NCBI GenBank assembly: GCA_031316235.1
Contig: JALDRA010000001.1
Coordinates: forward strand, 2,190,001 to 2,222,000
Reading direction: 5' to 3'
Length of the DNA: 32,000 nt
Source: Candidatus Scalindua sp.
Lineage (GTDB): Bacteria > Planctomycetota > Brocadiia > Brocadiales > Scalinduaceae
The notes beneath the pieces are model-generated. The model worked only from the letters and a program-made list of their open reading frames with translations. It did no database searches and had not been told where the DNA came from. Position numbers and translations under genes: made by a program. Below, one piece after another: positions 6,796-25,190 of this stretch (the stretch's first letter is position 1; the number at the start of each line of letters is the position of its first letter).

Positions 6796-7770
6796 TTAGT
6801 GCGGGGTTCCTGTCCGCCCCTTTTTCCCAACAAGCTTCAGCAACTGGTGTTTCATGATACTCTTGATAACCCTTATGATGTCGAAGCCTATCGGTTTGAG
6901 TTCCGGAAGGATAAAATCTTCCACCCTCGCAGAAGAGAGTTCACTGCCGACAATTTCTATCCTGGAAAGATCCTGCTCCCCTGTTTGTAACCGTTCAGCT
7001 GCTCTGAGGACCGGAACGTTCTGTGGATTGACGAAAAGCAGCTCTGCAACAACACGGTCAAGGGCAATGCAGTCGATGGCCCCGACAAGGAGCGAGACAT
7101 CTTTCGGCAATCCACCTGTCGGCCCTTTTTCCTCCATGGCCATGATACTATCAAGGATGGTAAATGATGGTTTAACCATCTGATAATTGGCAATGAGCAT
7201 ATCTGCATACCACTCCAGATCATTCTTTGCCATAAAGTGTCTCCAGACTTTCCGCTTTCCGCTTACGCAACCGTACATATTCTTTATCCCTGCGGTATAG
7301 AGCAGTTGAACATGAGCCTTTAATTTCGGAAGATTGATTATGGCATCAACATCAAGCGCTTTTCCTGAAACCGTTAAGGTAAATTTTTTCCCTCCACATT
7401 CAACAGACACCTTACGTGGTTTGTCCAGCTCGATTATTTTGATACCTAAATTACGGGCAACCTTATCCAGCCCCACATAGCTCGTTATCTTCTTCATGGA
7501 TCCGAATGCCGGGCTGTCACCTATTACCGGCACGGCACCTGCGTCAAGGACCTTTCGTGCAACCGTTTCTATCACTACAGGATGTGTTATCACACATTTT
7601 CTCGGGCTGCTCGCTTTCAGGAAATTTGGTTTGAGAAGAACCTTGTCTCCTTGTTTGACAATACTTTCAATCCCGCCAAAATAAGAAAAGGTCTTATCTA
7701 TTGCATCAGAAACCTCTTTTTGAGAATAACTGCTGCATCGTACCAGTGAAATTTTATTCAAATTTGTCAT
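6796..7770 (-). CDS. DUF362 domain protein (cytoplasmic paralogue)
   Basis: 324 aa. GDKVLLKPNFL and LPKLKAHVQLLYTAGIKNMYGCV match the DUF362 pattern. It is paralogous to 20217-21218 (GDRVIIKPNIA / AKQHGTSRLSMALKNTLGMV). No signal peptide. Confidence 0.75.
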   Translation of the reverse strand: MTNLNKISLVRCSSYSQKEVSDAIDKTFSYFGGIESIVKQGDKVLLKPNFLKASSPRKCVITHPVVIETVARKVLDAGAVPVIGDSPAFGSMKKITSYVGLDKVARNLGIKIIELDKPRKVSVECGGKKFTLTVSGKALDVDAIINLPKLKAHVQLLYTAGIKNMYGCVSGKRKVWRHFMAKNDLEWYADMLIANYQMVKPSFTILDSIMAMEEKGPTGGLPKDVSLLVGAIDCIALDRVVAELLFVNPQNVPVLRAAERLQTGEQDLSRIEIVGSELSSARVEDFILPELKPIGFDIIRVIKSIMKHQLLKLVGKKGRTGTPH

Positions 7771-11157: not shown

Positions 11158-12711
11158 TTGAATGAGTCTGACGCTCGTAAGGTCCTATTTGTAAGGGCCA
11201 TAGAAAAGGGAGATCCTGCCGGATTGGTTTTGCCCAAGGCAGATAGATTAGTAGCAACTCGAAAAGCACGCCGCCCTGAAATAGTTGTTTGTGAAGAAAA
11301 AACAGAATCCCGCCCCCTCAACCAGGAAGAGGAATCATTCCTTGTCAGACGTGCTGAGTCACTCATACAAACCTTGAATCAGTGCTGTCCCGGTGCTCGA
11401 ATAGATCCCGGAGAATTGCAATGGAAAGGCTGGCTCACGGTTTTGTGCTTTATTCTGGCCTTTTTTTTGGGTTTCATTGCCAATGAGTTTGAATCCGGTA
11501 AACGATTAAATCTGTTGGCTTTTCCCGTCATGGGCATGCTCATATGGAACCTTGCTGTATACGGGTATATCGGATTTTCGCACATCCAGAGTGCTTTTAA
11601 GAAGGATTCCTGTGCGACATTCAACGGACCTATTATTCATGTTTTGTCAAGTGTGGCAACCCGGCATCTGAATAAAAACAGAGCTTCTGCTGATCGGTCA
11701 TCGATTCTCAGCAGGTGTTTCCAGAATTTTATCATTGAGTGGTCCCGACTCGCTTCCTCGATCTATAAAAGCCATGCTGCAAGGGTAATGCACGTGTGTG
11801 CCTTACTTTTTGCTGTTGGGATTATTGGAGGTATGTATATAAGGGGCGTAACGACGGAATATTATGCTGGTTGGGAGAGTACCTTTTTGGAGCCTGAAAC
11901 CGTACAAAAGCTCATGAATGTTGTTTTTATGCCAGCCGCTCTCCTTACCGGTCAGCAACTTCCAACAGTCGAACGAATAAAGGCTATCCAGTGGAGAGAC
12001 CGACGAGTCGGGGAAAACGCTGCAGAGTGGATACATCTCTTTTCAAAGACACTGTTTCTTTTCATTGTCATCCCGAGGGGATTTCTTTTTTTTATGGCAT
12101 TGAAACGGGAAAGGAAATTTCGAGCGCATTTTCCTATTCCGTCCGCGGCTGATTCCTATTTTAGAGAGCTGTTAACAGCCAGACCGGGACAGAGGGAACA
12201 CGTTCTCGTAATACCATACACAATTGAGCTTGCAGAGAAACAAATGGAGGTATTGTGCTCACTGTTTGATCAAAGCTTCGGTTGGAAGACGCAAGTCGAA
12301 TTCCACGATACCATACCCTATGGAGGTGAGAATAAATTGTTCAAAGAGCTTGTAGCTCGTACGATGACTTCTGCTGAATATTTGATAATTCTTTTCAATC
12401 TGTCATCTACTCCTGAATATGAGATTCATGGTGCTTTCATACATAATCTTAAGGAAGCCATTGCTATCGGCAATTCAACGAAAAAAATTCTCGTTACGAT
12501 TGATGAATCTCATTTTGTGTCCCGGTTCTCTCGTCTGTTGAATGGAGAAGAGAGGCTCGCATCACGCAAGAAATTATGGGAAAAAACAATTGCAGGAGAT
12601 ATCCTCAGACCCATCTTTGTCAATCTGCACAATCCTGATGTGGAAGAGTGGCAATTAAATATCGGTAAAGTTCTCACGTCTTTAAATGATCATGTCTGGA
12701 AATATGAATAA
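11158..12711 (+). CDS. DUF2868-like polytopic membrane protein with C-terminal alpha/beta domain
   Basis: 517 aa with a TTG start 7 nt after GGAGA. It has a soluble N-terminus of about 90 aa. Hydrophobic segments are WLTVLCFILAFFLGFIANEF, LLAFPVMGMLIWNLAVYGYIGF, VMHVCALLFAVGIIGGMYI and LFSKTLFLFIVIPRGFLFFMAL. A soluble tail of about 190 aa with an alternating beta/alpha pattern follows. Family assignment is from memory of the family and its usual pairing with DUF3482 GTPases, and needs HMM confirmation. Confidence 0.6.
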   Translation: MNESDARKVLFVRAIEKGDPAGLVLPKADRLVATRKARRPEIVVCEEKTESRPLNQEEESFLVRRAESLIQTLNQCCPGARIDPGELQWKGWLTVLCFILAFFLGFIANEFESGKRLNLLAFPVMGMLIWNLAVYGYIGFSHIQSAFKKDSCATFNGPIIHVLSSVATRHLNKNRASADRSSILSRCFQNFIIEWSRLASSIYKSHAARVMHVCALLFAVGIIGGMYIRGVTTEYYAGWESTFLEPETVQKLMNVVFMPAALLTGQQLPTVERIKAIQWRDRRVGENAAEWIHLFSKTLFLFIVIPRGFLFFMALKRERKFRAHFPIPSAADSYFRELLTARPGQREHVLVIPYTIELAEKQMEVLCSLFDQSFGWKTQVEFHDTIPYGGENKLFKELVARTMTSAEYLIILFNLSSTPEYEIHGAFIHNLKEAIAIGNSTKKILVTIDESHFVSRFSRLLNGEERLASRKKLWEKTIAGDILRPIFVNLHNPDVEEWQLNIGKVLTSLNDHVWKYE

Positions 12712-14182
12712 ATTGAATGAATCCATTACGTTGAGCCTTATCTCACATACCAATGTTGGAAAAACAACTCTCGCACGCACATTGCTGAGAAAGGAAATTG
12801 GGGTAGTACGGGACGGTGCTCATGTGACGGATTTGAATGAATTATACATTATGCTGGAGACTTCCGGAGGTCATGTTCTACGCCTTTGGGATACCCCGGG
12901 ATTTGGTGATTCGGCGAAGCTGCTTAATCATTTAAAGAGTATACCCAGGCCAACAGGGTGGTTTCAAGATGAAGTATGGGATCGTTTTCATGATCGCTCA
13001 CAGTGGTGCAATCAACAAGCTATCCGTAATGTACGGGAGGAAGCGGATGTCATACTCTACCTTGTCAATGCTGCCGAAGATCCTGCACAGGCGGGGTATG
13101 TAGATTGTGAAATGCAGATACTCGATTGGCTGAGTAAACCGGTTATTGTCCTCTTGAACCAGATGGGTCCGCCACGAGAAGCCGAGATTGAAGCTGGAGA
13201 AGAAAAGTCCTGGAAAGTGCACCTTCAGCGGTTTGAAGTTGTGAAGTATGTAATGGGTCTGGATGCCTTTGCACGGTGCTGGGTCCAGGAAGATCTGCTC
13301 ATGAGAACAATCGAAGGGGTGCTTCCATTTGCAAAGCGGAAACCATTTGCTGCTATCAGTAAAGAGTGGAGAAATAACAATCATTCGATTTTTGAGAGAG
13401 CAATGGATTCTCTTGCGAGGCAGATCTCCGCTGCATGTTGCGACCGGGAGACAGTTTCCAAAACATCGATGTTTCGGCTGGTTCAATTTAAATTGCCGGT
13501 TCCGGGAACATTTTCAGAAAATAGAAAAGAGAAAGAAGTCGCCATGAAAAGGTTGGCTGAAAGGCTGCAGAACAACGGTAGACAGTCACTCGCAGAATTG
13601 ATCCACCTGCATCAGCTCGAAGGGCGTGCCGTGACAGAGATCATCAAACGGATGTCCAGTGATTTTTCATCGAACAAACCCATAAACGAGGGTATCTCGG
13701 CGATAATTGGAGGTTTTGTAACCGGGGCAATAGGCGGAGTGAGTGCCGATTTTCTATCAGGAGGTTTGACGTTCGGCGGTGGCGCTGTTGTAGGTGGAGT
13801 GTTGGGGGCAGTCGGCGCTGGGGGACTGGTCAAAGGGTTTAATTTTATTCGTGGAGATACCAGTGCATTTATCCGCTGGTCATTACCATTGTTTCAGGAG
13901 TTGTTTCGAATTTCCCTGCTACGCTACCTTGCAGTTGCTCATTTTGGAAGAGGAAGAGGAGAGTATACAGAAAGTGAATATCCCGAATTCTGGAAAACTG
14001 CAGTCCGTCAAATTGTTGCAGAGTATCACAATGAAATCAAGGCCCTTTGGGATGCAGGTAAACGGGAGCTGAATTCTTCAAAACTAGATTTACGTACAAA
14101 AGAGATCGTCTCGAAAATTATAAGGGAGTTATTGGAAGGGTTTTATGCTGAAGCACATACTTCTGGATCAGTATTCCAGTAG
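12686..14182 (+). CDS. P-loop GTPase (MMR_HSR1-like) fused to a DUF3482-like region with glycine-rich membrane segment
   Basis: G1 is SHTNVGKTT and G3 is WDTPGFGDS. The G4 position reads LLNQMG. A helical middle part is followed by GISAIIGGFVTGAIGGVSADFLSGGLTFGGGAVVGGVLGAVGAGGLVKGF (13691-13840) and then LAVAHFGRGRGEY. Candidate starts ATG 12686, 12692 and 12704 all overlap the end of the upstream gene; 12704 gives ATGAATAA coupling. Confidence 0.75.
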   Translation: MIMSGNMNKLNESITLSLISHTNVGKTTLARTLLRKEIGVVRDGAHVTDLNELYIMLETSGGHVLRLWDTPGFGDSAKLLNHLKSIPRPTGWFQDEVWDRFHDRSQWCNQQAIRNVREEADVILYLVNAAEDPAQAGYVDCEMQILDWLSKPVIVLLNQMGPPREAEIEAGEEKSWKVHLQRFEVVKYVMGLDAFARCWVQEDLLMRTIEGVLPFAKRKPFAAISKEWRNNNHSIFERAMDSLARQISAACCDRETVSKTSMFRLVQFKLPVPGTFSENRKEKEVAMKRLAERLQNNGRQSLAELIHLHQLEGRAVTEIIKRMSSDFSSNKPINEGISAIIGGFVTGAIGGVSADFLSGGLTFGGGAVVGGVLGAVGAGGLVKGFNFIRGDTSAFIRWSLPLFQELFRISLLRYLAVAHFGRGRGEYTESEYPEFWKTAVRQIVAEYHNEIKALWDAGKRELNSSKLDLRTKEIVSKIIRELLEGFYAEAHTSGSVFQ

Positions 14183-15233: not shown

Positions 15234-16577
15234 TTACTCTTTTGTCAACTTCTTTTCCTCTTCCTGTATCCTCTTCTGCATCTCTCCTGCCCATTTTGTA
15301 ATACTTTTTGCATCTACAGGTTCTCCGCCCGTAAGAATCTTCAGCTGTCTTCCCTCAAGAACTTCTTGTTCTTCTCCTCCTCTTACAACGGTTGCACTGC
15401 CCCTCGTTGGTGTTATCTGAATCATAAATTCTGATACCTTGATGTCAATTTCTGCTTCATGTACACGTACACTGCTGGTATGGGCTGTTACGATAAATGG
15501 CTCTTTATCCCCAGAAATCTTTGCTAATATCTGCCCCTGTACAATGTCAAGCTTTCTTTTTTCTACCAGTTTGATATTAGTATCCACGTCCATAATGATA
15601 TACGTACCGTCCTTTAGAACAAAAGAGGCTTTACTTCCTTTTCCCGTCTGCAGGATTGCCCCTTTCTGGATTTTCGATTTATCGTTTACTACCCGCCATT
15701 TATTGTCAACTGAAGAACGCGTTTTTACGACACCTGTTGATTCTACAAGCTTTGCTTTGGCGGGCAGCGTAAAAAATAAAAAAATGATATAGACACACAG
15801 GGCACCAAAACCCAACAAAAGGCAGAATCTGCCAACAGCCTTTTTTGTCGGCCTTATCAGTATTATGCCTATTTCGTACAGGGCGATCATCGGCAATGCC
15901 GTCATAACCTGCGTAAAAGGGTCCGGCGGTGTAATGACAGCTGCGATTATAAAAATGATAAGGATAGCGTACTTTCTCCATTTCGCAAAATCTTCGCCCT
16001 TCAGTACTCCAATCTTTGCAATAAGCAACATGACAAGGGGAAGTTGAAATACGATGCCAAGGGCGATTGTCAACAGGAAGACAAGAGAAATATACTGACT
16101 CATCGTAATCACAGGTTCTATACTTGAGCCCAGAATTTTGATCAAAAACTGCAGTCCATATGGAATCAGTAAAAAGTATCCGAACAAGATACCTGATACG
16201 AATGCAATAAGGGAAAAAGGAACAAAAATTATTACGTACCTGCGTTCTTTCCTGTACAAACCGGCTTCGACAAATTTCCAGATTTGATATACAATAACAG
16301 GGTAAGCCATAAACAGCGATGCTATGAGGCAGAGCTTTATATAAGCATAAAAACCCTCCTGATAACTTAAAACCTGAAGTGATTGAGGCAGACCCAGGTT
16401 CTCCATCGCAAAATTGTGTGGTTTTTTGACGATATACAGGATCTTTGATTTAAATAACCAGCTGATAAAGAAGAAACCGGCAACAGCAATAATCGATTTT
16501 ATAATCCTTGATCGCAGCTCCTCAAGGTGCTCACTTATCGGTAACCTTTTCTCCTGGGTCTCTTGATTTTCTACCAT
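15234..16577 (-). CDS. tatC: TatC (twin-arginine translocase subunit) fused to an extra TM helix and a C-terminal FecR-like domain
   Basis: The N-terminal about 245 aa has the ISEHLEELRSRIIKS start and six hydrophobic segments typical of TatC. A seventh TM follows (FCLLLGFGALCVYIIFLFFTL). Next comes KIQKGAILQTGKGSKASFVLKDGTYIIMDVDTNIKLVEKRKLDIVQGQILAKISGDKEPFIVTAHTSSVRVHEAEIDIKV, which follows the FecR-domain pattern (G-x-l-x-T-g..s-x-a-x-l-x-l-x-dG-s...f-x-V-x-T). It is one uninterrupted 447-aa ORF. Confidence 0.8.
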   Translation of the reverse strand: MVENQETQEKRLPISEHLEELRSRIIKSIIAVAGFFFISWLFKSKILYIVKKPHNFAMENLGLPQSLQVLSYQEGFYAYIKLCLIASLFMAYPVIVYQIWKFVEAGLYRKERRYVIIFVPFSLIAFVSGILFGYFLLIPYGLQFLIKILGSSIEPVITMSQYISLVFLLTIALGIVFQLPLVMLLIAKIGVLKGEDFAKWRKYAILIIFIIAAVITPPDPFTQVMTALPMIALYEIGIILIRPTKKAVGRFCLLLGFGALCVYIIFLFFTLPAKAKLVESTGVVKTRSSVDNKWRVVNDKSKIQKGAILQTGKGSKASFVLKDGTYIIMDVDTNIKLVEKRKLDIVQGQILAKISGDKEPFIVTAHTSSVRVHEAEIDIKVSEFMIQITPTRGSATVVRGGEEQEVLEGRQLKILTGGEPVDAKSITKWAGEMQKRIQEEEKKLTKE

Positions 16578-16883
16578 CTCTGTTTTTCCATCTGTTTGTT
16601 TGAAGACGTACCTGTTTTTAATAGCGTGATATGATACTAGGACGGGTGTAAAATTACAAGATTCAATCTTTCTCCGATTTTTTTCCTGAAACAGGGCTGC
16701 CTGTTCTTCCTCCCGGGGGCAACCGGTCTGTGCATGGAGATGTCCGGGCTTTCCAGTGGGTTTCTCATGCGGTTTTTTCCAGGCTCCAGGGTATCAGAAA
16801 AGCCTTGAAAGGGTTTACTCTTTCTGATATTATCGATTCTCAAGTACGGTTTCGGTCCTTTTTTACTCAGGAAAGGTAATACG

Positions 16884-17357
16884 ATGGTTAGATCATTTGC
16901 AGGCAGCCTTATTGGTACTGGTAAGACTTTTGGTATTATTGTTAGCAGATTTAACAGTTTCATTACAAAACAGTTGCTGGAGGGGGCGCAGGACTGTCTG
17001 ATAAGACACGGAACCGATGAAAAGGATATTGATGTTTTCTGGGTTCCAGGGTCTTATGAAATACCGATTACGGCCATGAAGCTGACCAAAAATGGCAAAT
17101 ACGATGGCGTCATCTGTCTGGGTGCAGTAATACGCGGAGAAACACCACATTTTGATTATGTTTCCAGTGAATCTGCCAAGGGAATTACCGAGGTTGGTCT
17201 TGCAACCGGTGTTCCCACAACATATGGAATCATCACAACCGATACCCTGGAACAAGCCATAGATAGAGCAGGTACCAGAAGCGGCAATAAGGGTGCAGAA
17301 GCCGCATTGACAACGCTGGAAATGGTAAATTTATTTGAAACGATAAAGAATGGGTAA
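16884..17357 (+). CDS. ribH: 6,7-dimethyl-8-ribityllumazine synthase
   Basis: 157 aa. Contains FGIIVSRFNSFITKQLLEGAQDCLIRHG, WVPGSYEIP and GAVIRGETPHFDYV. Confidence 0.92.
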   Translation: MVRSFAGSLIGTGKTFGIIVSRFNSFITKQLLEGAQDCLIRHGTDEKDIDVFWVPGSYEIPITAMKLTKNGKYDGVICLGAVIRGETPHFDYVSSESAKGITEVGLATGVPTTYGIITTDTLEQAIDRAGTRSGNKGAEAALTTLEMVNLFETIKNG

Positions 17358-17401
17358 CATGTACGAATATTTCGGGCATACACATCCCTGGAGATCTGAG
17401 T

Positions 17402-18724
17402 TTGCGAAAAAGAACAGTCTCTCGTGAAATAGCGTTACAGGCGCTTTACCAGCTGGAGATCCGCGGTGATGAAATCATGAGCGAGATAGACTCCTTCTGC
17501 AGGAACCAGAGTAGCGAAGAAGAGATATGGAAATTTGCCTTGATGCTCGTTAAGGGGTGTTTTAAGAACATTGAAGAAATAGACAGGAAGATTGTTTCCG
17601 TGTCAGAAAATTGGAGTATGCACAGGATGCCCGTAGTAGATAAAAACATATTACGCTTAGCATGTTATGAGCTTTTCTTTCTGGAAGATATTCCTCCCAA
17701 GGTGACCATTAACGAAGCAATCGATCTTGCAAAGAAATTCAGCACGGAGAAATCAGGATTATTTGTAAATGGTGTATTGGATAAGGTATATTCGGCCTAT
17801 CTCAGCGAGAATAAAAACGATAGCCAACAGGGTACACCGGATTTGTGTGGACACCGTAATGGAGAGGCAGCCAAACGTATATATACAGGTACCGGTGCAG
17901 ACCTTCATATCCATACAGAGTTCTCTGACGGAACTTTTACCCCGGAACAGGTAGTTGAAGAAGCAGTAAAACAAGGCCTTCGAACTATTGCCGTCACAGA
18001 CCATGATAACATTGATGCGCTGGAGGCAACCCGGGAGATCTGTGATCAAAAAGGGATACAGTTCATACCTGCAGTTGAGCTCTCTTCTTTTTATGATCCG
18101 GTGGATATTCATATCTTGGGCTATTACATAGACATAAAGAGTATCGCGCTGAGAGAAAAATTAGCAGAACTGAGGCATGAAAGGATCGAACGAATAAAGA
18201 AAATCTCGGCAAAACTGCACAAGTTGAAAATTGATATTGACCCACAGGAAGTTTTAGATGTTGCAGGAAAAGGGGTGGCCGGCAGGGTACATGTAGCGGA
18301 TGTTTTAGTTCGAAAAGGGTATTGCAGTACCATGCAGGAATGCTTTAATTCCTACCTGGCAGATTATGGGCCGGCCCACGTGCCTAAAGTCTCATTATCG
18401 CTGGAAGGTGCTATTGAGCTCGTAATATCTGCAGGCGGTGTCCCCGTTTTTTCACACCCGGGTCTTACGAAAAGAGATGATTTGATTCCAAAAATGATAG
18501 GATACGGTTTGCAGGGTATCGAGGCCTTTTACCCTTCTCATCATCCGGATGTTGTAAAGCGATATATCCGGTTGGCTCAGAAACATGATCTTGTAATTAC
18601 GGGTGGTTCTGACTGCCATGGTGATCGAAAGCCTGCTACCACGCTTGGTTGTATTACGATAGAAGATTGTCTCGTTGAAAAGATTGCAGAAAGATGCAAT
18701 AGCATGGTTGGCCTCTTCAGTTAG
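17402..18724 (+). CDS. nusB: NusB antitermination factor fused to a PHP-domain phosphoesterase (TrpH/YciV-like)
   Basis: TTG start at 17402 after GGAG (17390-17393). Residues 1-135 are SREIALQALYQLEIRGD ... VDKNILRLACYELFFLEDIPPKVTINEAIDLAKKFS ... FVNGVLDKV (NusB). After a linker of about 30 aa comes ADLHIHTEFSDGTFTPEQVVEEAVKQGLRTIAVTDHDN ... GGSDCHG (PHP, COG0613-type). It is a single 440-aa ORF, 44 nt after ribH. Confidence 0.85.
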   Translation: MRKRTVSREIALQALYQLEIRGDEIMSEIDSFCRNQSSEEEIWKFALMLVKGCFKNIEEIDRKIVSVSENWSMHRMPVVDKNILRLACYELFFLEDIPPKVTINEAIDLAKKFSTEKSGLFVNGVLDKVYSAYLSENKNDSQQGTPDLCGHRNGEAAKRIYTGTGADLHIHTEFSDGTFTPEQVVEEAVKQGLRTIAVTDHDNIDALEATREICDQKGIQFIPAVELSSFYDPVDIHILGYYIDIKSIALREKLAELRHERIERIKKISAKLHKLKIDIDPQEVLDVAGKGVAGRVHVADVLVRKGYCSTMQECFNSYLADYGPAHVPKVSLSLEGAIELVISAGGVPVFSHPGLTKRDDLIPKMIGYGLQGIEAFYPSHHPDVVKRYIRLAQKHDLVITGGSDCHGDRKPATTLGCITIEDCLVEKIAERCNSMVGLFS

Positions 18725-18781
18725 CATCACAACAACTTGTCTGCTTTTTTATGCAGTGGTTGAGCGGAAATTATCTATCTG

Positions 18782-18868
18782 CCGCGTTGCCGCAATAAGC
18801 CCTTAATCATCAAGTACCTTGTCTGGTTCCGGTTGCAGAATGAAAGAACCCTCTGTCGGGGCAGTTTC
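18782..18868 (+). repeat. Post-stop structured repeat, copy C
   Basis: Ungapped alignment to 19961-20048 gives about 63% identity over the first 60 nt. The blocks CGTTGC (18785), GTTCCGGTT (18826) and GGGCAGTTTC (18859) have spacings of 41 and 33 nt, against 41 and 34 nt in copy B. It lies 58 nt after the nusB-PHP stop and about 100 nt before ftsY. Confidence 0.7.
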
Positions 18869-18964
18869 AGAGAGCCGAAGTTTTCTTTCCAGCGCTGTTA
18901 ATACTCTTTGGTTGTGACTTATCCAGGCCCTGGATGAGGAAGAAAAGTCATGTTCAGGTGAAAT

Positions 18965-19942
18965 ATGGGTTGGTTTTCAAAAAAAAAATCTGGTCTATCC
19001 AAAGAAAAGAAAACGGAAAATAGATCACTGTCATCTTTCCAGAGACTGAAGAACAGTCTTGAGAAGACACGCAGTAAACTATCTTCAAAGTTTAAGAACA
19101 TTGTTTCATTCAGAAAAAAGATTAACACAGCGGTCCTCGATGAAATAGAAGAGATACTGCTTGAATCTGATGTGGGAGTCGGCCCTACGACGAGGATCGT
19201 TCAGGAAATCAGAGACGCCTGGCAGGCCAAAGAGATTGAAGACACCTCTGATGTGTATGATTTCTTGAAAAATAAATTAAAGGAGGGTCTTAAGGGGTGG
19301 GATATTTCCTTAAATATTTCGTCTGTTTCACCAACAGTGATCATAGTTGCGGGCATCAACGGTGCTGGTAAAACGACCTCAATTGCTAAAATTGCCAATA
19401 TATTTATAAAACAGGGTAAGAAAGTTATGCTGTCAGCCAGCGATACTTTCCGTGCTGCTGCTGCGGAACAGCTTGATATCTGGAGTAAAAGAATCGGCTC
19501 TGATATTGTAAAACATCAGACAGGTGCAGATCCTGCTGCAGTCACGTTTGATGCACTTGATGCATGTTTGAAAAGAAAAGCAGATGTTTTGATCGTAGAT
19601 ACGGCAGGCCGTTTACATACTCATGATAATTTGATGAAAGAGTTGTCAAAGATTAAGCGGGTGATATCCAGCAAAATTGCGAATGCACCGCACGAAGTCC
19701 TCATGGTCCTGGATGCTACCACGGGGCAGAATGCGATATCGCAGGCGAAACTTTTCAAAGATGCGGTTGGTATTACGGGTATCATTTTATCAAAGCTGGA
19801 TGGTACAGCCAAGGGCGGTGTAATCCTGGGTATGCGTGATGAGATAGATATACCGGTAAAATTCATTGGTATTGGTGAAGGTGCAGATGATATCCAGGTA
19901 TTTGATGGAGATCAGTTCGTAGATGCTTTATTTGATGCGTGA
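18965..19942 (+). CDS. ftsY: signal recognition particle receptor FtsY
   Basis: 325 aa. It has a Lys-rich N-terminus, GINGAGKTTSIAKIA (G1), DTAGRLH (G3), SKLDGTAKGG (G4) and a PVKFIGIGEGADDI tail. Confidence 0.92.
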   Translation: MGWFSKKKSGLSKEKKTENRSLSSFQRLKNSLEKTRSKLSSKFKNIVSFRKKINTAVLDEIEEILLESDVGVGPTTRIVQEIRDAWQAKEIEDTSDVYDFLKNKLKEGLKGWDISLNISSVSPTVIIVAGINGAGKTTSIAKIANIFIKQGKKVMLSASDTFRAAAAEQLDIWSKRIGSDIVKHQTGADPAAVTFDALDACLKRKADVLIVDTAGRLHTHDNLMKELSKIKRVISSKIANAPHEVLMVLDATTGQNAISQAKLFKDAVGITGIILSKLDGTAKGGVILGMRDEIDIPVKFIGIGEGADDIQVFDGDQFVDALFDA

Positions 19943-20052: not shown

Positions 20053-20216
20053 AAGCACTATCTGATTACACTATGAGCAAAGAACACATCCTGCTACTCA
20101 TTTCAAACATTGAATCAATGGGGTTCTTCGTTTAGTACGGTGAAATAATTCATCAAACTCATGTTTTGCAAAGCAAAAATAACTATAAGTCAGCGTCCAG
20201 CGGGAGCAGAGGTATT

Positions 20217-21218
20217 ATGAAAAAGAATATTTCGAGAAGGACATTTCTGAAAACCGGCGCTGCCATCGGAGCAGGTCTTTATGGATTGGCATATCTTGGT
20301 TCAATTGAAAGACCAGAACCTTTAAAGAAATTAAAGGAAAATGCATTAAAAAAGAAGCTGGTTGTCGTACACGGTGATTATACCAGATGCAATACCGGCA
20401 AAATAGATGATGAAGGTTCCACCATAAAGGAAATGGTGCGAAGGGGTGTCCGTGCTCTTGGATCCCTTGATAAACTGATTTCTCAAGGAGACAGGGTCAT
20501 CATCAAACCGAATATTGCGTGGGACAGGAGACCTGAATTTGCGGTCAACACAAATCCATTTGTAGTTGCCGCGTTAATTGAGCTGTGTAAAGAGGCTGGT
20601 GCGGGCAGCATAAGGGTCCTCGATCATACCTGCTCTTCGAATCCGAAACCTTCATACCTGAATAGCGGGATTGAAAAAGCATCATTTGAAGCAGGTGCAG
20701 ACGTAAGATTTGTCAATCAGAGTTTATTTAGAAATATAACCATACCGGGCGGTAAGGTCCTCCGCTCATGGTCATTTTATGAAGAGTTGATACACCAGGA
20801 TGACATTGATGTCTTAATCAATGTACCCATTGCAAAACAGCATGGTACTTCCCGTTTATCCATGGCACTGAAAAACACATTGGGGATGGTAGGGGGAAAC
20901 AGGGGTGCTCTGCATAAAGACATACATCCTAAAATAGCCGATCTTAATAGAGTTGTCAAAGTTGATCTTACCGTGCTTGATGCATTCAGGACGTTAAGGC
21001 GGCACGGACCAACCGGCGGAAGATTGGAAGATGTCGATAACTCCTTTGAAACTGCAAGAAGAATCGTCATCAGCACTGATCCTGTTGCAGTGGATTCGTA
21101 TGGTGCCACCCTGTTCGGATTGAGAGGAGAGGACATCGGTTTTATACATGAGTCACATGAAGCAGAATTGGGAGAGATTGACTTCATGGCAAATGGTTTT
21201 GAAGAAATAACGGTTTAG
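20217..21218 (+). CDS. DUF362 domain protein with twin-arginine (Tat) signal peptide
   Basis: ATG at 20217 after GGAGCAGAGG. The N-terminus MKKNISRRTFLKTGAAIGAGLYGLAYLG fits the S-R-R-x-F-L-K Tat motif plus an h-region. DUF362 blocks are GDRVIIKPNIAWDRRPE and AKQHGTSRLSMALKNTLGMVGG. Confidence 0.8.
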   Translation: MKKNISRRTFLKTGAAIGAGLYGLAYLGSIERPEPLKKLKENALKKKLVVVHGDYTRCNTGKIDDEGSTIKEMVRRGVRALGSLDKLISQGDRVIIKPNIAWDRRPEFAVNTNPFVVAALIELCKEAGAGSIRVLDHTCSSNPKPSYLNSGIEKASFEAGADVRFVNQSLFRNITIPGGKVLRSWSFYEELIHQDDIDVLINVPIAKQHGTSRLSMALKNTLGMVGGNRGALHKDIHPKIADLNRVVKVDLTVLDAFRTLRRHGPTGGRLEDVDNSFETARRIVISTDPVAVDSYGATLFGLRGEDIGFIHESHEAELGEIDFMANGFEEITV

Positions 21219-22212: not shown

Positions 22213-23709
22213 ATGCGAAATATGATAAAGATGCTACACGTAGCAGGCACTTTAGTGCTCTTTCAGTTCTGTTTTTCTGGTTCTTCGGTAAGTGCTGCTT
22301 CCATCTTAGAGGGTCTGAATAGCTTTCAGGAGTCGTTAGCCGGATGGGTTGAAAAGGTTGAAAAACTGGAAGAGAGATCTTCAACTGTTGAAAAAGATCT
22401 TGAAGCGAAAGACAAACAGCTGGCAGAGATAAATAGGAGTCTTTCAAACATAGAGTCTCTTCTCTCGAAGCTTGATTCCAAGCTTACCAGGGTTCAGAAT
22501 ATGCGTTCGGTCGAAGGAGTGAAAGAAACCTTGAAATCATACGAAGATGTATTGGATGTCATTAAGAAAAGATTTTCCGAGATGGTGAAGAGACTGGAAG
22601 ACCAGGAAGTGAAAGTCTCGGTCCTTGAAAGAGTGTATGAAGCTACACAGAATCCAGTCGAAACCATGTTACGTGAAATGGATAAGCAGAAAGTGATAAT
22701 CAGTGCTCTCACTGAAAAGATGGCAACACAGGATAAATCACTTCTGGTGATTATGGATGACTTCAAGAAAGGTACAAGTTCATCGGAAGATCTTGGTAAA
22801 AAGATTGAGAAATTAAACAAAAGGTTAGCCGAGCTGGAATCTGGAGCTGTTATCGTCAAGGGGGGCAGTGTGGCACAGAAAGGCCATGGGACAGAAAAAA
22901 AAGAAGGCTCTCAGGCGACAGGATCTAAGGATCAGGTTGCAGCCGACCATAAAACTGAAAGCCATGATACCGGCGAACATAAACAGGAATCTGATGAAAT
23001 GAAAGGATATATCGATATCGGTATGGGATTTTTTATTAATGATTTGAAATTTGTTTCGTTTGGCTCCTCATGCCGGGTACAGGGAGAAATAGTGAACAAA
23101 TCAAAAAGGTACTACAGTACGGCTGATTTTATCATAAAGGTGTTTGACAAGGTAGGTAAACAACTGGGCGGGCAGGGTTTTTCCTTGATAGGCCTCAGCC
23201 AGAACCATAAAGCGGACTTTGAAGAGATTTTGACCGGTGTAAATGAAGAGGAAATTACCAGCTATACCCTCTACTATGCTAAAATGCCATCACTTTTAGC
23301 CACGGGAGAGGGGGGATTGAAGATGCTGGAGCGAAAGCATGAGGGGGTGACAGCTGAAGAAGCAGCAGGCAGCCTGCATGATGAGAAAAAGGAAGAAGCG
23401 GAAGTGATAGAGGTGGCCAAAGATTTTAAAGAGATTGGCAACGGGTTTTATATAGGAAATGTCACTTTTTCCGGTTTTGGTTCATCTTCATCCGTGGCAG
23501 GTCTGATTCAAAATCATTCAGAGACGGACATCGGCCGCGCAGCCTTTCGTATGCAAATCTTCAGTAAGGAATACGGCCTGATTACGAAGCTGGATTTCGC
23601 AGTCAGGCACCTGAAGGCAGGAGAATCTCAGCACTTCGAAGAAATTATTACCGGCGTACGCCCTACAGATATCGATCGATATGAAGTACTATTCAAGGAT
23701 TCTTATTGA
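22213..23709 (+). CDS. secreted coiled-coil protein with two tandem copies of an unassigned about 90-aa domain
   Basis: The signal peptide is MRNMIKMLHVAGTLVLFQFCFSGSSVSA/AS (the track ORF begins at TTG 22192). About 190 aa are heptad-rich (EKLEERSSTVEKDLEAKDKQLAEINRSLSNIESLLSKLDSKL...), followed by a charged His/Lys/Glu linker. The two repeats are at 23005-23277 and 23422-23706. Confidence 0.7.
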   Translation: MRNMIKMLHVAGTLVLFQFCFSGSSVSAASILEGLNSFQESLAGWVEKVEKLEERSSTVEKDLEAKDKQLAEINRSLSNIESLLSKLDSKLTRVQNMRSVEGVKETLKSYEDVLDVIKKRFSEMVKRLEDQEVKVSVLERVYEATQNPVETMLREMDKQKVIISALTEKMATQDKSLLVIMDDFKKGTSSSEDLGKKIEKLNKRLAELESGAVIVKGGSVAQKGHGTEKKEGSQATGSKDQVAADHKTESHDTGEHKQESDEMKGYIDIGMGFFINDLKFVSFGSSCRVQGEIVNKSKRYYSTADFIIKVFDKVGKQLGGQGFSLIGLSQNHKADFEEILTGVNEEEITSYTLYYAKMPSLLATGEGGLKMLERKHEGVTAEEAAGSLHDEKKEEAEVIEVAKDFKEIGNGFYIGNVTFSGFGSSSSVAGLIQNHSETDIGRAAFRMQIFSKEYGLITKLDFAVRHLKAGESQHFEEIITGVRPTDIDRYEVLFKDSY

Positions 23710-25148
23710 GAGATCTGATACTCCTTCGTAAAACCTTTCCATTCTGAATCCAGGTCCATCTCACCTGGGGTCTGGGATAGAGGATTTTTTGATTTTGGTG
23801 TAAGGGACTCTCTAGGTTCACTTGGGGTTTGAGGGCTTTCGCCCTGCGTTCCATGAGTTTCAGGTAACTTGCCCTGCGTCGCACCTCCTGCCTCTGCATT
23901 ATCCTGAATCTCATTTTCTAGTTTATCTAGATCATAGCGTTTCGGTATTGCATCCTTAATATCCCTTTCGAGCTCTTCAGAAAGTTTCAATATAGTGGAT
24001 ATATCTGATTGCTTTCTATGATCCTCCCCTAGACCCGTTGACCTAAGCACTATATCTGTGTCCAGGTTTCCTCCCAGTTTTCTTACCATCTCAGCTATAT
24101 TCAGTAAATCAACATCTCTGGTTGAGACAATGATATCATTCAGGTTAATGTTGCGTGCAGCTTCTAATGCAACAATCAGGTCTCCGCCTAAACCCGTCAT
24201 GGCCTCTCTCCTCATCCTTTCACCTTCGGCCTTTGCCTTTTCAATGAGCAGTTTCCCCAGAGCTATCCGGATATGTTTATAGTTGTTGCCCTCAGCCACT
24301 TTTTCAACGCGAAACTTGTCTGCTGTAGCTACAATCTCGGTAACCTTGGTTTCAATGTCTGCTTTCAATGTAACCTTTGTTCCCTCTTTGTCAGACTGTA
24401 TTTTTTGTGCAAGTGCCTCTGTGCTGGCATCTATCGTCTGGGTAATACCACGCTCCTCTGCAGCCTTTGTCTTTGCGATATTTAATAACTCTTCCAACCC
24501 CGCAAGTTTAATATTCTTAATCTTTCTCTCCAGCTGTGGGTCAAATCTCATATCAAGAATGAGCCAATCGATAACTTCAACATTACAACGTGATTTAAGC
24601 CGATATGAGAGGAGCTTTTTCGCCTCTGAGCCCCTTTTTCGTTTCTCCTCAGGATCATAAAGATCTTTTTCACTCATCTTACCCAGAATGTTTCTGGCTA
24701 CGTCTTTGGTTTCGTTTTCCACAAACTGCTTATATCTTTCACCCGCTCCTATCTCCTGGCGGATCTTGTGCGCCTGTCCCTTGGCTATCTGATATTTAAC
24801 GATAATGTCAACGGTAACATCGTAGTCATCCGCAGTCCTGATTGGTATCTCCTTAGATTCCATAACTCCCTCTTTGTTACGAGCCTCCCTGGTCAAATTA
24901 AGGGTCTGTACGGTGCCATCAAACAGGTCCCAATACTCTGCTTTCCTGATATATCTGTGCCAACCAGGGCTATAGTCTTTTTGAACAACACCTCGCTTAA
25001 CACCCCATATCACCGTTCTCACACCAACCTGATCAATCCCAACCTTGATTATGCAAAACCTAAAAGTGGTAACAATGACAATTATGGCTACCACGATAAT
25101 TATTGGAACAAAATTTTTGGCCAAAAACCTGGCAAGAAACTTTACCAT
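23703..25148 (-). CDS. SPFH/Band 7 domain membrane protein, paralogue 2 (HflK/C- or flotillin-like)
   Basis: It has an N-terminal TM (FVPIIIVVAIIVIVTTF) and an SPFH core (VGIDQVGVRTVIWG ... IRTADDYDVTVDIIVKYQI). A long coiled-coil region and a Pro/Ser/Thr/Glu-rich tail follow. Its stop overlaps the stop of the convergent 22213-23709 gene by 7 nt. Confidence 0.8.
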   Translation of the reverse strand: MVKFLARFLAKNFVPIIIVVAIIVIVTTFRFCIIKVGIDQVGVRTVIWGVKRGVVQKDYSPGWHRYIRKAEYWDLFDGTVQTLNLTREARNKEGVMESKEIPIRTADDYDVTVDIIVKYQIAKGQAHKIRQEIGAGERYKQFVENETKDVARNILGKMSEKDLYDPEEKRKRGSEAKKLLSYRLKSRCNVEVIDWLILDMRFDPQLERKIKNIKLAGLEELLNIAKTKAAEERGITQTIDASTEALAQKIQSDKEGTKVTLKADIETKVTEIVATADKFRVEKVAEGNNYKHIRIALGKLLIEKAKAEGERMRREAMTGLGGDLIVALEAARNINLNDIIVSTRDVDLLNIAEMVRKLGGNLDTDIVLRSTGLGEDHRKQSDISTILKLSEELERDIKDAIPKRYDLDKLENEIQDNAEAGGATQGKLPETHGTQGESPQTPSEPRESLTPKSKNPLSQTPGEMDLDSEWKGFTKEYQISQ

Positions 25149-25190
25149 GAAAATAATCTCCTGAATTTCTTAAAAACGCAATGTTTTAAT

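What the first reader, a model, noticed from the sequence alone, without database searches (positions are those of the whole stretch)
15234..16577. TatC fused through a 7th TM helix to a FecR-like sensor domain
A single uninterrupted 447-aa ORF contains a complete six-TM TatC. It continues (about 15234-15845) with one more hydrophobic helix and a beta-rich domain of about 150 aa whose pattern matches FecR-type domains, then a short charged coiled tail.

TatC has both termini in the cytoplasm, so a seventh TM would put the FecR-like module on the trans side of the membrane, where folded Tat substrates emerge. FecR domains normally act as periplasmic signal-receiving or protein-binding modules of anti-sigma factors.

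I am not aware of a described TatC-FecR fusion. It suggests either substrate- or partner-specific docking on the exit side, or sensing coupled to Tat transport. No tatA/tatB is adjacent.
Basis: partly seen in the sequence, partly recalled or inferred. Interest (0 to 1): 0.7.

Follow-up and report, generated by a model that had tools for sequence, protein, structure and literature searches.

The report
TatC fused to FecR-like domain
The protein-export receptor TatC of this anammox bacterium (Candidatus Scalindua) really does carry a seventh membrane helix and an outward-facing FecR-like beta domain, but the fusion was already described in 2010 for the related bacterium Kuenenia and its function is still untested.

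Summary
The 447-aa ORF at 15234-16577 (-) is a complete TatC (Pfam 221.7 bits) followed by a seventh TM helix (aa 245-272), a FecR-type all-beta module (aa 273-422; Pfam FecR 37.9 bits, cut-off 24) and a charged terminal helix. AlphaFold2 (pLDDT 89.9) plus Foldseek match TatC structures and the FecR-like domains of PupR (6OVK) and 4M0N.

It is not an assembly artefact. More than 200 independent assemblies carry the same ORF, and dN/dS of the module is 0.16.

It is not new. Medema et al. 2010 described this TatC-FecR fusion in Kuenenia (kustc0286), predicted the non-cytoplasmic location and speculated on anammoxosome sorting.

What I add:
- The fusion occurs in Scalindua, Brocadia, Jettenia and Anammoxibacter, and also in a 67-71% GC lineage (SM23_32 type) that lies outside the anammox order as far as I can tell. 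That weakens the organelle-sorting idea.
- The module has only the FecR "CJM" subdomain. It lacks the anti-sigma domain, the STN subdomain, the Gly-Thr self-cleavage site and any sigma factor or TonB-transducer neighbours. A FecR-style signalling role is therefore unsupported.

Most likely it is the lineage's resident TatC with a structural or partner-docking appendage on the exit face.

The parts
15234..16577 (-). Whole gene: tatC fused to TM7 and a FecR-like module (447 aa plus stop codon)
   Evidence: Uninterrupted ORF. 100% identical to P0001, named by NCBI 'MAG: twin-arginine translocase subunit TatC [Candidatus Scalindua sp.]'. An independent assembly has the identical ORF.
15846..16550 (-). 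TatC core, aa 10-244: six TM helices with both ends in the cytoplasm
   Evidence: Pfam TatC 221.7 bits and TIGR00945 190.2 bits. phmmer to A. aeolicus TatC 4B4A gives E 4e-37 over aa 12-242; E. coli 9DZZ_A residues 5-234 align to window 10-242. Foldseek target-normalised TM-score is 0.88 to 4B4A. E20, E111, T216 and Q223 correspond to E. coli E15, E103, T208 and Q215 and are invariant or nearly invariant in the family.
15762..15845 (-). TM6-TM7 turn and seventh TM helix, aa 245-272 (KKAVGRFCLLLGFGALCVYIIFLFFTLP)
   Evidence: Highest hydropathy peak of the protein, preceded by a basic loop. AF2 helix 245-270. The family junction motif is P-[ST]-[RK]-x-[TA]-[LF]-x-x-F-x-[RK]-F-x-G, with P243, F251 and G256 conserved in 92-98% of 102 sequences (P243 100/102, F251 94/102, G256 94/102). 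An RR pair occurs in only 18 of 102.
15312..15761 (-). FecR/CJM-like all-beta module, aa 273-422, predicted on the trans side. The Pfam FecR match is aa 309-393 (nt 15399-15653). The module ends in the conserved motif GGEPVD.
   Evidence: Pfam FecR 37.9 bits against a cut-off of 24. The family profile hits PupR 6OVK_R with E 1.2e-9 and 4M0N with E 2.7e-5 by sequence. Foldseek gives 4M0N E 5.7e-6 and 6OVK_R E 6.1e-5, rmsd 3.1 A over 122 columns. AF2 predicts 16 strands with pLDDT mostly above 85. dN/dS is 0.16 against L001.
15237..15311 (-). Terminal charged helix, aa 423-447, containing the near-invariant W429
   Evidence: AF2 helix 423-446. W429 is present in 99% of 102 sequences, while the tail beyond it is variable (7% identity to the distant lineage).
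16578..16883 (.). Divergent intergenic region between tatC and ribH
   Evidence: ORF map. The divergent arrangement of tatC against ribH-nusB(PHP)-ftsY is conserved in Scalindua, Brocadia, Jettenia and unnamed Planctomycetota loci. Promoter-like matches here are consensus hits only.
16884..19942 (+). Conserved neighbours ribH (16884-17357), nusB-PHP fusion (17402-18724) and ftsY (18965-19942). These are context only, not part of the protein.
   Evidence: Pfam hits DMRL_synthase, NusB+PHP and SRP54/SRP54_N. Synteny in 12 of 20 fused loci.

Best explanation
This gene encodes the resident TatC of the organism, the signal-peptide receptor and core subunit of the twin-arginine (Tat) translocase. 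It is a lineage-wide variant found across the planctomycete class Brocadiia.

The six-helix TatC core is intact and should work as usual. It would bind twin-arginine signal peptides on the cytoplasmic face and assemble with a TatA-family partner encoded elsewhere in the genome.

After TM6 the chain turns at a conserved proline, crosses the membrane once more (TM7) and displays a beta-solenoid module of about 150 aa on the trans side. This module is of the FecR juxta-membrane (CJM) type. The trans side is the periplasm and, in anammox cells, probably the anammoxosome lumen.

Known Tat core complexes contain three TatC subunits, so a complex would carry three such modules around the exit face. 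I infer that the module is a constitutive structural or protein-docking appendage that packs on TatC's trans-side cap. It would stabilise the complex or hold a lineage-specific partner there, rather than act as a FecR-style signal transducer.

Shown here: the architecture, the fold, the predicted topology, conservation and purifying selection, the distribution, and the absence of FecR signalling features.

Inferred only: docking on the cap, three copies per complex, a structural or docking role, and insertion of TM7 by the Sec/YidC route.
For: Identity and integrity of the TatC half. The catalytic-site equivalents E20, E111, T216 and Q223 are conserved.

FecR/CJM fold of the module: Pfam, profile against PDB sequences and AF2 plus Foldseek.

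Trans-side topology: in agreement with three predictors run on the Kuenenia orthologue.

Resident, orthologous gene:
- The locus next to ribH-nusB-ftsY is conserved in Scalindua, Brocadia, Jettenia and related MAGs.
- Kuenenia has a single tatC and it is the fused one.

Retained by selection:
- dN/dS is 0.16 for the module and 0.07 for the core.
- The architecture is found in about 25 clusters at 50% identity.
- It is also found in a 67-71% GC lineage that includes 'Planctomycetes bacterium SM23_32'.
- That lineage's module is homologous by a TatC-independent profile comparison (hhalign 96.9%, E 1.4e-10).
- Its AF2 model (pLDDT 92.1, pTM 0.83) again matches 4M0N.

Structural rather than catalytic or ligand-sensing role: the residues conserved in the module are mostly glycines plus P420 and W429.

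Docking on TatC:
- pTM values of 0.74 and 0.83 for two-domain chains suggest a defined domain arrangement.
- The residues that are invariant in the fused family but uncommon in canonical TatCs are mainly trans-side (W40, G150; enriched H54, Y72, E74, P155).

Precedent: M. xanthus and N. salsuginis TatCs carry large periplasmic inserts, the M. xanthus insert trimerises and adds TatC-TatC contacts, and the core complex is (TatBC)3 (PMC13323110).
Against: - No experiment or multimer model was available. The packing of TM7 and the module could not be inspected because model coordinates and PAE are not exposed.
- The trimer-crown picture is an analogy with loop inserts of unrelated fold.
- Conservation of only fold-determining residues is also what a rapidly co-evolving binding surface, or a sensor with lineage-specific ligands, would show.
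- No conserved neighbouring gene points to a partner. The two sub-lineages have different neighbourhoods.
- Whether Scalindua has a second, canonical tatC could not be checked from a 32-kb window.
- The comparison set of 'canonical' TatCs holds the nearest sequence relatives only, and some of them share H54, Y72 or P155.
Confidence: 0.5

Rival explanations
1. Organelle-sorting device (the speculation of Medema et al. 2010). The lumen-facing FecR-like domain marks or adapts the Tat translocase for the anammoxosome membrane. It would be part of the way anammox bacteria sort proteins to their organelle with single-copy Sec and Tat systems.
For: - The fused TatC is the only TatC in Kuenenia, and 7 of its 9 predicted Tat substrates were predicted to be anammoxosomal.
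- The fusion is present in all anammox genera recovered here: Scalindua, Brocadia, Jettenia and Anammoxibacter.
- The module faces the trans side.
Against: - The same architecture, with a homologous module, occurs in a 67-71% GC lineage that includes SM23_32.
- GTDB-based usage places SM23-32 in class Brocadiae, whereas all known anammox bacteria belong to order Brocadiales.
- That lineage's loci carry heterotroph-type genes such as a 1022-aa GH106 rhamnosidase.
- The fusion therefore appears older and broader than anammox.
- Caveat: absence of hydrazine synthase or of an internal compartment in those MAGs was not tested here.
Confidence: 0.12
2. Trans-side sensor. The FecR-like module receives a signal (ligand, partner protein, envelope state) and regulates Tat transport or downstream signalling, as FecR-type regulators do.
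For: - PF04773 domains are best known from trans-envelope signalling proteins.
- The module is homologous to PupR and to a Bacteroides anti-sigma periplasmic domain.
- It is under purifying selection.
Against: - There is no cytoplasmic anti-sigma domain. The only cytoplasmic parts are TatC's own termini and loops.
- There is no STN subdomain, although PupR needs both CJM and STN to bind its transducer. Only a 25-aa helix follows the module.
- The Gly-Thr self-cleavage position reads H-E-A-E.
- No ECF sigma or TonB-dependent receptor gene lies within about 15 kb on either side.
- No polar residue cluster is conserved across the family apart from the GGEPVD...W end motif.
Confidence: 0.1
3. Built-in Tat passenger. 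TM7 plus the FecR-like domain descends from a FecR-like signal-anchored protein that is exported by Tat, as E. coli FecR is. The module would still be exported by the Tat machinery itself, in cis or by a neighbouring TatC. It might occupy the signal-peptide site as an autoregulatory or priming element.
For: - E. coli FecR is inserted via Tat, guided by R79-R80 just before its TM, and its periplasmic domain folds in the cytoplasm first (PMC12036975; Passmore et al. 2020 as cited).
- The TM6-TM7 junction has a conserved motif with some resemblance to a Tat motif (S/T-R-x-...-F), and some members read S-R-R-x-L-L.
Against: - A twin-arginine pair is present in only 18 of 102 family members. The window protein has T-K-K...G-R-F instead.
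- TM7 is the most hydrophobic segment of the protein. From my general knowledge of Sec/Tat dual-inserted proteins (Tooke et al. 2017, seen here only as a reference), high hydrophobicity favours Sec/YidC insertion rather than Tat.
Confidence: 0.06
4. Assembly or annotation artefact. A missed stop or frameshift joins tatC to a separate downstream FecR-domain gene.
For: One database 'stand-alone' FecR protein (P0271, 216 aa, 54% identical to the window's C-terminal part) at first looked like a split version.
Against: - P0271 starts inside TM6. Its contig has a 151-N scaffold gap splitting the gene, so the split is the artefact.
- The continuous ORF recurs in more than 200 independent assemblies from four data sources, at 30-100% identity.
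- The junction carries family-specific conserved residues (P243, F251, G256).
- dN/dS across TM7 and the module is 0.16-0.21.
Confidence: 0.01

Closest known systems
TatC-FecR of Candidatus Kuenenia stuttgartiensis, kustc0286 / CAJ71031 (Medema et al. 2010, BMC Genomics 11:299)
   Same: - Same architecture: TatC with a C-terminal PF04773 domain predicted to be non-cytoplasmic.
- It is the single tatC of the genome, with tatA/B encoded elsewhere and ftsY a few genes away (kustc0279).
- Brocadiaceae orthologues fetched here are 47-48% identical over the full length and share the ribH-nusB-ftsY neighbourhood.
   Different: - Different family (Scalinduaceae against Brocadiaceae).
- The Kuenenia sequence itself was not fetched, so orthology rests on Brocadia and Jettenia loci and on gene numbering.
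- The paper called the combination unique to Kuenenia TatC. Here it is class-wide.
Canonical TatC (E. coli, Aquifex aeolicus; PDB 4B4A, 4HTS, 9DZZ)
   Same: Six-helix glove fold (target-normalised TM-score 0.78-0.88), full-length HMM match, and conserved E15, E103, T208 and Q215 equivalents.
   Different: - Canonical TatC ends in the cytoplasm shortly after TM6. Here about 200 further residues add TM7, a beta module and a helix.
- W40, G150 and P243 are invariant in the fused family only.
Atypical TatCs with large periplasmic inserts (Myxococcus xanthus, Nitratifractor salsuginis; PDB 9E03, 9E02; Nat Microbiol 2026, PMC13323110)
   Same: An extra domain on the trans face of an otherwise normal TatC, tolerated within a (TatBC)3 core complex. 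The M. xanthus insert trimerises and augments TatC-TatC contacts.
   Different: Those are insertions within periplasmic loops and have other folds. Here the domain is appended C-terminally through an additional TM helix and is FecR-like. No structure or stoichiometry is known for it.
FecR / PupR / FoxR cell-surface-signalling sigma regulators (PDB 6OVK; 4M0N/4M0H)
   Same: A single N-in/C-out TM helix followed directly by the twisted beta-solenoid 'CJM' subdomain, which is Pfam FecR.
   Different: - No N-terminal anti-sigma domain.
- No STN subdomain.
- No Gly-Thr self-cleavage site.
- No conserved twin-arginine motif.
- No sigma-factor or transducer neighbours.
Other seven-TM TatCs of Planctomycetota with non-FecR C-terminal extensions
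   Same: TatC followed by a seventh hydrophobic segment and a C-terminal extension of about 190-230 aa. L022 is labelled an uncultured Planctomycetia bacterium.
   Different: The extensions do not match FecR. Five of 25 hit HEAT_2 and the rest hit no Pfam family. They are not alignable to the window's module (one search aligns only aa 5-245).

Membership tests
TatC (PF00902 / TIGR00945) | Full-length match to the family models above curated cut-offs | tested here: met
   PF00902 221.7 bits (cut-off 25.1), model positions 1-208 of 208. TIGR00945 190.2 bits (cut-off 132.7).
TatC (PF00902 / TIGR00945) | Six-TM glove fold with N- and C-termini of the core in the cytoplasm | tested here: met
   Hydropathy and positive-inside pattern. 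The AF2 model matches 4B4A (target-normalised TM-score 0.88) and the cryo-EM TatCs 9DZZ, 9E01, 9E02 and 9E07. No dedicated topology predictor was available.
TatC (PF00902 / TIGR00945) | Conserved signal-peptide-binding glutamates (E. coli E15, E103) and polar-cluster residues (T208, Q215) | tested here: met
   E. coli chain residues 5-234 align to window 10-242. Window E20, E111, T216 and Q223 are invariant or at least 98% conserved in the fused family and conserved in canonical TatCs.
TatC (PF00902 / TIGR00945) | A TatA-family partner in the same genome, and transport activity | not testable with these tools
   No tatA-like ORF in the 32-kb window, and only 1 of 20 fused loci (L016) has one nearby. 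Kuenenia encodes one tatA/B elsewhere. Activity needs experiments.
Anammox TatC-FecR fusion (Kuenenia kustc0286 type) | Single polypeptide with TatC followed by a C-terminal PF04773 domain | tested here: met
   All 120 closest database proteins carry PF00902 plus PF04773.
Anammox TatC-FecR fusion (Kuenenia kustc0286 type) | FecR domain on the non-cytoplasmic side, via an extra TM helix | tested here: met
   TM7 follows a basic cytoplasmic loop and is AF2 helix 245-270. The result matches Phobius, TMHMM and HMMTOP on the Kuenenia protein. This is a prediction only.
Anammox TatC-FecR fusion (Kuenenia kustc0286 type) | Orthologous locus in anammox genomes | tested here: met
   tatC lies divergent from ribH-nusB(PHP)-ftsY in Scalindua, Brocadia, Jettenia and Brocadiales loci. 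The Kuenenia locus was not fetched; the proximity of kustc0279 (ftsY) and kustc0286 (tatC) is taken.
FecR-type sigma regulator (cell-surface signalling anti-sigma factor) | Periplasmic FecR/CJM beta-solenoid subdomain after a single TM helix | tested here: met
   PF04773 37.9 bits. 6OVK_R E 1.2e-9 by profile. Foldseek gives 4M0N 5.7e-6 and 6OVK_R 6.1e-5.
FecR-type sigma regulator (cell-surface signalling anti-sigma factor) | N-terminal cytoplasmic anti-sigma domain | tested here: not met
   The whole N-terminal 244 aa is TatC, and no other Pfam or NCBIfam domain appears at E up to 10.
FecR-type sigma regulator (cell-surface signalling anti-sigma factor) | C-terminal STN subdomain, needed with CJM to bind the transducer's signalling domain | tested here: not met
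   Only about 25 residues, a single helix, follow the beta module. Matches to 6OVK_R cover chain residues 16-105, the CJM part only. There is no FecR_C/STN-type Pfam hit. The requirement is taken from PMC7186176.
FecR-type sigma regulator (cell-surface signalling anti-sigma factor) | Gly-Thr self-cleavage site (FecR G181/T182, FoxR G191/T192) | tested here: not met
   hhalign places the 'V-G-T-S' of the canonical FecR-like protein P0274 opposite window H373-E374-A375-E376. The family consensus at this position is A/G-E. PMC7186176 calls these residues non-conserved among regulators, so this row alone is weak.
FecR-type sigma regulator (cell-surface signalling anti-sigma factor) | Genomic association with an ECF sigma factor and a TonB-dependent transducer | tested here: not met
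   Pfam annotation of the ORFs of 100 aa or more that I took as the likely genes of the window (25 of the 41 listed; the rest overlap these on other frames or strands) shows neither. The same holds for the called genes around the high-GC relatives.
FecR-type sigma regulator (cell-surface signalling anti-sigma factor) | Twin-arginine motif before the TM helix (Tat-dependent insertion, as in E. coli FecR) | tested here: not met
   The window reads RPTKKAVGRF. RR occurs in 18 of 102 family members and any dibasic pair in 37 of 102.
Atypical TatC with periplasmic insert (M. xanthus / N. salsuginis type) | Extra domain inserted within a periplasmic loop of TatC | tested here: not met
   The loops are of normal length; aa 12-242 align to the 249-residue A. 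aeolicus chain without large gaps. The extra domain is C-terminal, after TM7.
Atypical TatC with periplasmic insert (M. xanthus / N. salsuginis type) | Insert forms a trimer on top of the (TatBC)3 complex | not testable with these tools
   No multimer prediction and no model coordinates were available. This is an analogy only.

The most novel reading that the evidence does not exclude
The seven-TM TatC with its FecR-like module defines a distinct Tat translocon variant across the class Brocadiia. In this reading the three modules form a trans-side crown that takes an active part in transport. Possible roles are receiving or gating emerging folded substrates, recruiting a lineage-specific partner such as a maturation or anchoring factor, or being a Tat-exported element that primes or autoregulates the receptor. 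In anammox bacteria this ancestral appendage may then have been co-opted for targeting the translocase or its cargo to the anammoxosome.
Probability: 0.15. Interest if true: 0.7.

Novelty: already known. Interest (0 to 1): 0.35.

Why it matters
The fusion itself has been in the literature since 2010 and is visible in precomputed Pfam annotation, so finding it again in Scalindua is not a discovery. It still marks an unexplained modification of a core, otherwise very uniform, protein-export machine.

If the module takes part in transport or in holding a partner at the exit face, it would be a natural handle for two things. One is studying what happens on the trans side of Tat, the least understood part of the mechanism. 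The other is structural work, where extra-membrane mass helps cryo-EM; this was the reason given for choosing the M. xanthus and N. salsuginis complexes.

The distribution result reported here has a practical consequence. The fusion is also present in a high-GC, apparently non-anammox Brocadiia lineage. The popular link to anammoxosome sorting should therefore not be assumed. The ancestral function is better sought in ordinary envelope biology of this class.

Tried and rejected
- **C-terminal-only profile search of the 5.8-billion protein database.** It returned only 4 hits because of the word-index prefilter, so it was of little use for distribution. One hit (P0271) looked like a stand-alone module but proved to be a gene split by a 151-N scaffold gap.
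- **Genome scan with the 23-sequence alignment.** I repeated it with a closer 10-sequence alignment.
- **Cluster look-ups for organism names.** These gave almost no names.
- **Cis twin-arginine signal before TM7 (suggested).** Tested on 102 sequences and not supported as a conserved feature.
- **Position of TM7 relative to the TatA/TatB binding helices, and docking of the module.** Could not be examined because model coordinates and PAE are not exposed. Only pTM and residue-conservation arguments remain.
- **dN/dS against more distant Scalindua loci.** Synonymous sites were saturated, so only the L001 comparison is usable.
- **Weak Pfam hits.** DUF7534, DUF7354 and Head_fiber_dimeric are below their cut-offs and I disregarded them.
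- **Rfam and tRNA scans of the window.** Nothing found.
- **Promoter and terminator scan.** It gave only consensus-level matches, which I do not interpret.
Full report
**1. What is in the sequence**

- Positions 15234-16577 on the minus strand hold one uninterrupted 447-aa ORF starting with ATG.
- The window comes from an anammox planctomycete. The protein is 100% identical to a database entry that NCBI names 'MAG: twin-arginine translocase subunit TatC [Candidatus Scalindua sp.]', found on a 4.15-Mb contig.
- An independent Logan assembly of run SRR28338162 contains the identical ORF between the same neighbours.

**2. The two halves**

- Pfam TatC matches aa 16-229 over the entire model (E 1.2e-65, 221.7 bits). 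NCBIfam's tatC equivalog scores 190.2 bits against a cut-off of 132.7.
- Pfam FecR matches aa 309-393 (E 2.5e-9, 37.9 bits, cut-off 24).
- The TatC part aligns end to end with solved TatCs: A. aeolicus 4B4A at E 4e-37, and E. coli 9DZZ_A residues 5-234 to window 10-242.
- It keeps the residues that in E. coli are E15, E103, T208 and Q215. These are window E20, E111, T216 and Q223, invariant or nearly so in the family.
- A profile of the C-terminal region from 16 family members hits the periplasmic domain of the sigma regulator PupR (6OVK_R, E 1.2e-9). It also hits a Parabacteroides putative anti-sigma factor (4M0N/4M0H, E about 3e-5).

**3. Structure and topology**

- AlphaFold2 with a 102-sequence alignment gives a confident model (mean pLDDT 89.9, pTM 0.74). 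It shows the TatC helices, a further helix at 245-270, sixteen strands between 273 and 415, and a terminal helix at 423-446.
- Foldseek against the PDB returns TatC structures first (4B4A, target-normalised TM-score 0.88; the 2025 cryo-EM TatBC/TatAC complexes). The FecR-like domains follow: 4M0N (E 5.7e-6) and 6OVK_R (E 6.1e-5, rmsd 3.1 A over 122 columns).
- Hydropathy shows that the loop after TM6 is short and basic (RPTKKAVGR) and that the next segment (aa 251-273) is the most hydrophobic in the protein. The loops that should be cytoplasmic are the basic ones.
Three predictors gave the same result for the Kuenenia protein.

**4. Not an artefact**

- All 120 best hits (64-100% identity, 439-454 aa) carry both Pfam domains.
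- An exhaustive search of 1.84 billion cluster representatives finds about 25 further clusters that align over aa 8-430 at 30-46% identity.
- The one apparent 'stand-alone' module (P0271) starts inside TM6 and lies on a scaffold with a 151-N gap through the gene.
- Against the closest DNA relative (L001, dS about 0.7), dN/dS is 0.07 for the TatC core, 0.21 for TM7 and 0.16 for the beta module.

**5. Already described**

- Medema et al. [quoted passage not shown]
- They reported that Phobius, TMHMM and HMMTOP all put the domain outside the cytoplasm, and that tatC and tatA/B are single-copy.
- They speculated on a role in sorting to the anammoxosome.
- I found no later paper in the held library that takes this further.

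**6. Distribution and orthology**

- A scan of GTDB species-representative genomes finds the full-length architecture in Scalindua, Brocadia, Jettenia, Anammoxibacter, unnamed Brocadiales/Brocadiaceae and several unnamed Planctomycetota MAGs. Below these, only canonical TatCs of about 250 aa appear (Desulfobacterales and others).
- In 12 of these 20 loci the gene lies divergently next to ribH, a nusB-PHP fusion gene and ftsY, as in the window. In Kuenenia, ftsY (kustc0279) is likewise a few genes from tatC (kustc0286).
- A second, more distant group of about 95 proteins (27-35% identical to the window protein) has the same length and layout. Names given by sources are 'Candidatus Brocadiia bacterium', 'Planctomycetota bacterium' and 'Planctomycetes bacterium SM23_32'.
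- Their loci are 67-71% GC, against 37-54% for the anammox-type loci. They share a different neighbourhood, dnaX-ybaB-recR-rpoN-tatC followed by a 1022-aa GH106 glycosidase.
- Pfam sees only TatC in most of them. However, a profile built only from their post-TM7 regions aligns to the window's post-TM7 region with hhalign probability 96.9% (E 1.4e-10, 144 columns). Its best PDB sequence hit is 4M0H/4M0N.
- An AlphaFold2 model of the SM23_32 protein (pLDDT 92.1, pTM 0.83) has the same layout, and its best non-TatC structural match is 4M0N (E 4.9e-4, rmsd 3.1 A over 133 columns).
- A GTDB-based table in PMC11123730 lists 'Planctomycetota/Brocadiae/SM23-32'. PMC8862662 states that all known anammox bacteria belong to order Brocadiales.
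- I infer that the fusion predates, or at least extends beyond, the anammox lineage. Absence of hydrazine synthase in those genomes was not tested here.

**7. What the module is not**

- In PupR the periplasmic region has two parts: a juxta-membrane twisted beta-solenoid (CJM, residues 110-238) and an STN subdomain (250-324). Both are needed to bind the transducer's signalling domain (PMC7186176).
- The TatC-fused module corresponds to the CJM part only. The matches cover 6OVK_R residues 16-105, and only a 25-residue helix follows the strands.
- There is no anti-sigma domain.
- FecR self-cleaves between G181 and T182, and FoxR between G191 and T192. Opposite the 'V-G-T-S' of a canonical FecR-like protein, the window has H-E-A-E.
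- No ECF sigma factor or TonB-dependent receptor gene lies in the window or around the distant relatives.
- A FecR-style signalling mechanism is therefore not supported.

**8. An idea tested and mostly rejected**

- E. coli FecR is itself inserted by the Tat pathway, guided by R79-R80 just before its TM helix, after its periplasmic domain has folded in the cytoplasm (PMC12036975).
- This raised the possibility that TM7 plus the module is a built-in Tat passenger.
- The TM6-TM7 junction does carry a conserved motif, P-[ST]-[RK]-x-[TA]-[LF]-x-x-F-x-[RK]-F-x-G. However, a twin-arginine pair occurs in only 18 of 102 sequences and not in the window protein.
- TM7 is also strongly hydrophobic. From general knowledge of Sec/Tat dual-inserted proteins, that favours Sec/YidC insertion.
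- I keep this as a low-probability rival.

**9. Most likely function**

- The 2026 structures show the Tat core complex as a trimer of TatBC heterodimers. [quoted passage not shown]
- TatCs of M. xanthus and N. salsuginis carry large periplasmic loop inserts. The M. xanthus insert forms a homotrimer that adds TatC-TatC contacts (PMC13323110). Trans-side decorations of TatC are thus compatible with function.
- In the fused family the residues conserved in the module are almost all glycines, plus P420 and W429. This pattern indicates constraint on the fold rather than on a catalytic or universal ligand site.
- Within the TatC core, W40 (outer end of TM1, 96% against 9%) and G150 (TM3-TM4 loop, 91% against 9%) are invariant in the fused family but rare in canonical TatCs. 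H54, Y72, E74 and P155, in trans-side loops, are enriched. P243 lies at the TM6-TM7 turn (94% against 0%). The cytoplasmic signal-binding residues are unchanged.
- Together with pTM values of 0.74-0.83 for two-domain chains, this suggests that the module packs in a defined way on TatC's trans-side cap.
- My best explanation is a normal, resident TatC with a constitutive structural or partner-docking appendage on the exit face, present in three copies per complex. The role itself is inferred, not shown.

**10. Related variation**

Other Planctomycetota TatCs of 430-480 aa also have a seventh hydrophobic segment and a C-terminal extension, but of different kinds. Five of 25 hit HEAT_2 and the rest hit no Pfam family. 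One is from an uncultured Planctomycetia bacterium. Extended seven-TM TatCs may therefore be a wider habit of the phylum, with the FecR-like version specific to Brocadiia.

**11. Verdict**

The architecture and topology are right, the novelty claim is wrong, the sensing role is unsupported and docking is plausible.
- The feature is already known as an architecture and remains functionally uncharacterised.
- Interest is moderate to low for a genome scan. Some value lies in the finding that the fusion is not confined to anammox bacteria.

Noticed in passing
window 17402-18724 (+): NusB (aa 7-130) is fused to a PHP phosphoesterase domain in one 440-aa ORF. The same long nusB-PHP ORF follows ribH in Scalindua, Brocadia, Jettenia and related loci, so it looks like a lineage-wide fusion of a transcription antitermination factor with a phosphoesterase.
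   Followed up: partly
window 18965-19942 (+), with tatC at 15234-16577 (-): The SRP receptor gene ftsY is kept within three genes of tatC in most anammox-type loci. In Kuenenia the two are kustc0279 and kustc0286. Two protein-targeting genes therefore share a conserved neighbourhood.
   Followed up: partly
window 20166-21218 (+) and 6796-7770 (-): There are two DUF362 proteins. The first has a Pfam TAT_signal match (23.9 bits, cut-off 22.7) and follows ftsY in Scalindua loci L001, L005 and L006 and in L017 and L018. The second has no such match at E <= 1e-4.
   Followed up: partly
L022 6001-7380 and L025 6001-7338; proteins P0146-P0264 (alignment A2): Other Planctomycetota TatCs have a seventh hydrophobic segment and 190-230 aa C-terminal extensions that are not FecR-like. 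Five of 25 hit HEAT_2 and the rest have no Pfam match.
   Followed up: partly
proteins with two matched stretches (e.g. P0172, P0181, P0188, P0200, P0210): Many TatC representatives of 400-460 aa carry an insertion of 100-250 aa between TM1 and TM2. This resembles the periplasmic-loop inserts described for N. salsuginis and M. xanthus TatC.
   Followed up: no
P0132, P0319 (635-636 aa): These are fused TatC-FecR-like proteins of the high-GC lineage with an additional N-terminal extension of about 160 aa and a long acidic, proline-rich C-terminal tail.
   Followed up: no
L084 918-1792: A 151-N scaffold gap splits a Scalindua-type tatC-FecR gene. As a result the database holds a spurious 216-aa 'FecR-only' protein (P0271).
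   Followed up: yes
L076 5470-6207: A MAG labelled 'Candidatus Brocadiia bacterium MAG_16' encodes a canonical 250-aa TatC that is 39% identical to the window's TatC core. Whether this is its only tatC or a second copy is unknown.
   Followed up: no
window 11158-14182 (+): An overlapping gene pair encodes a DUF2868 protein (517 aa) and a DUF3482 GTPase (498 aa, MMR_HSR1 domain).
   Followed up: no
window 23703-26429 (-): Two adjacent SPFH/Band 7 paralogues of 481 and 412 aa.
   Followed up: no
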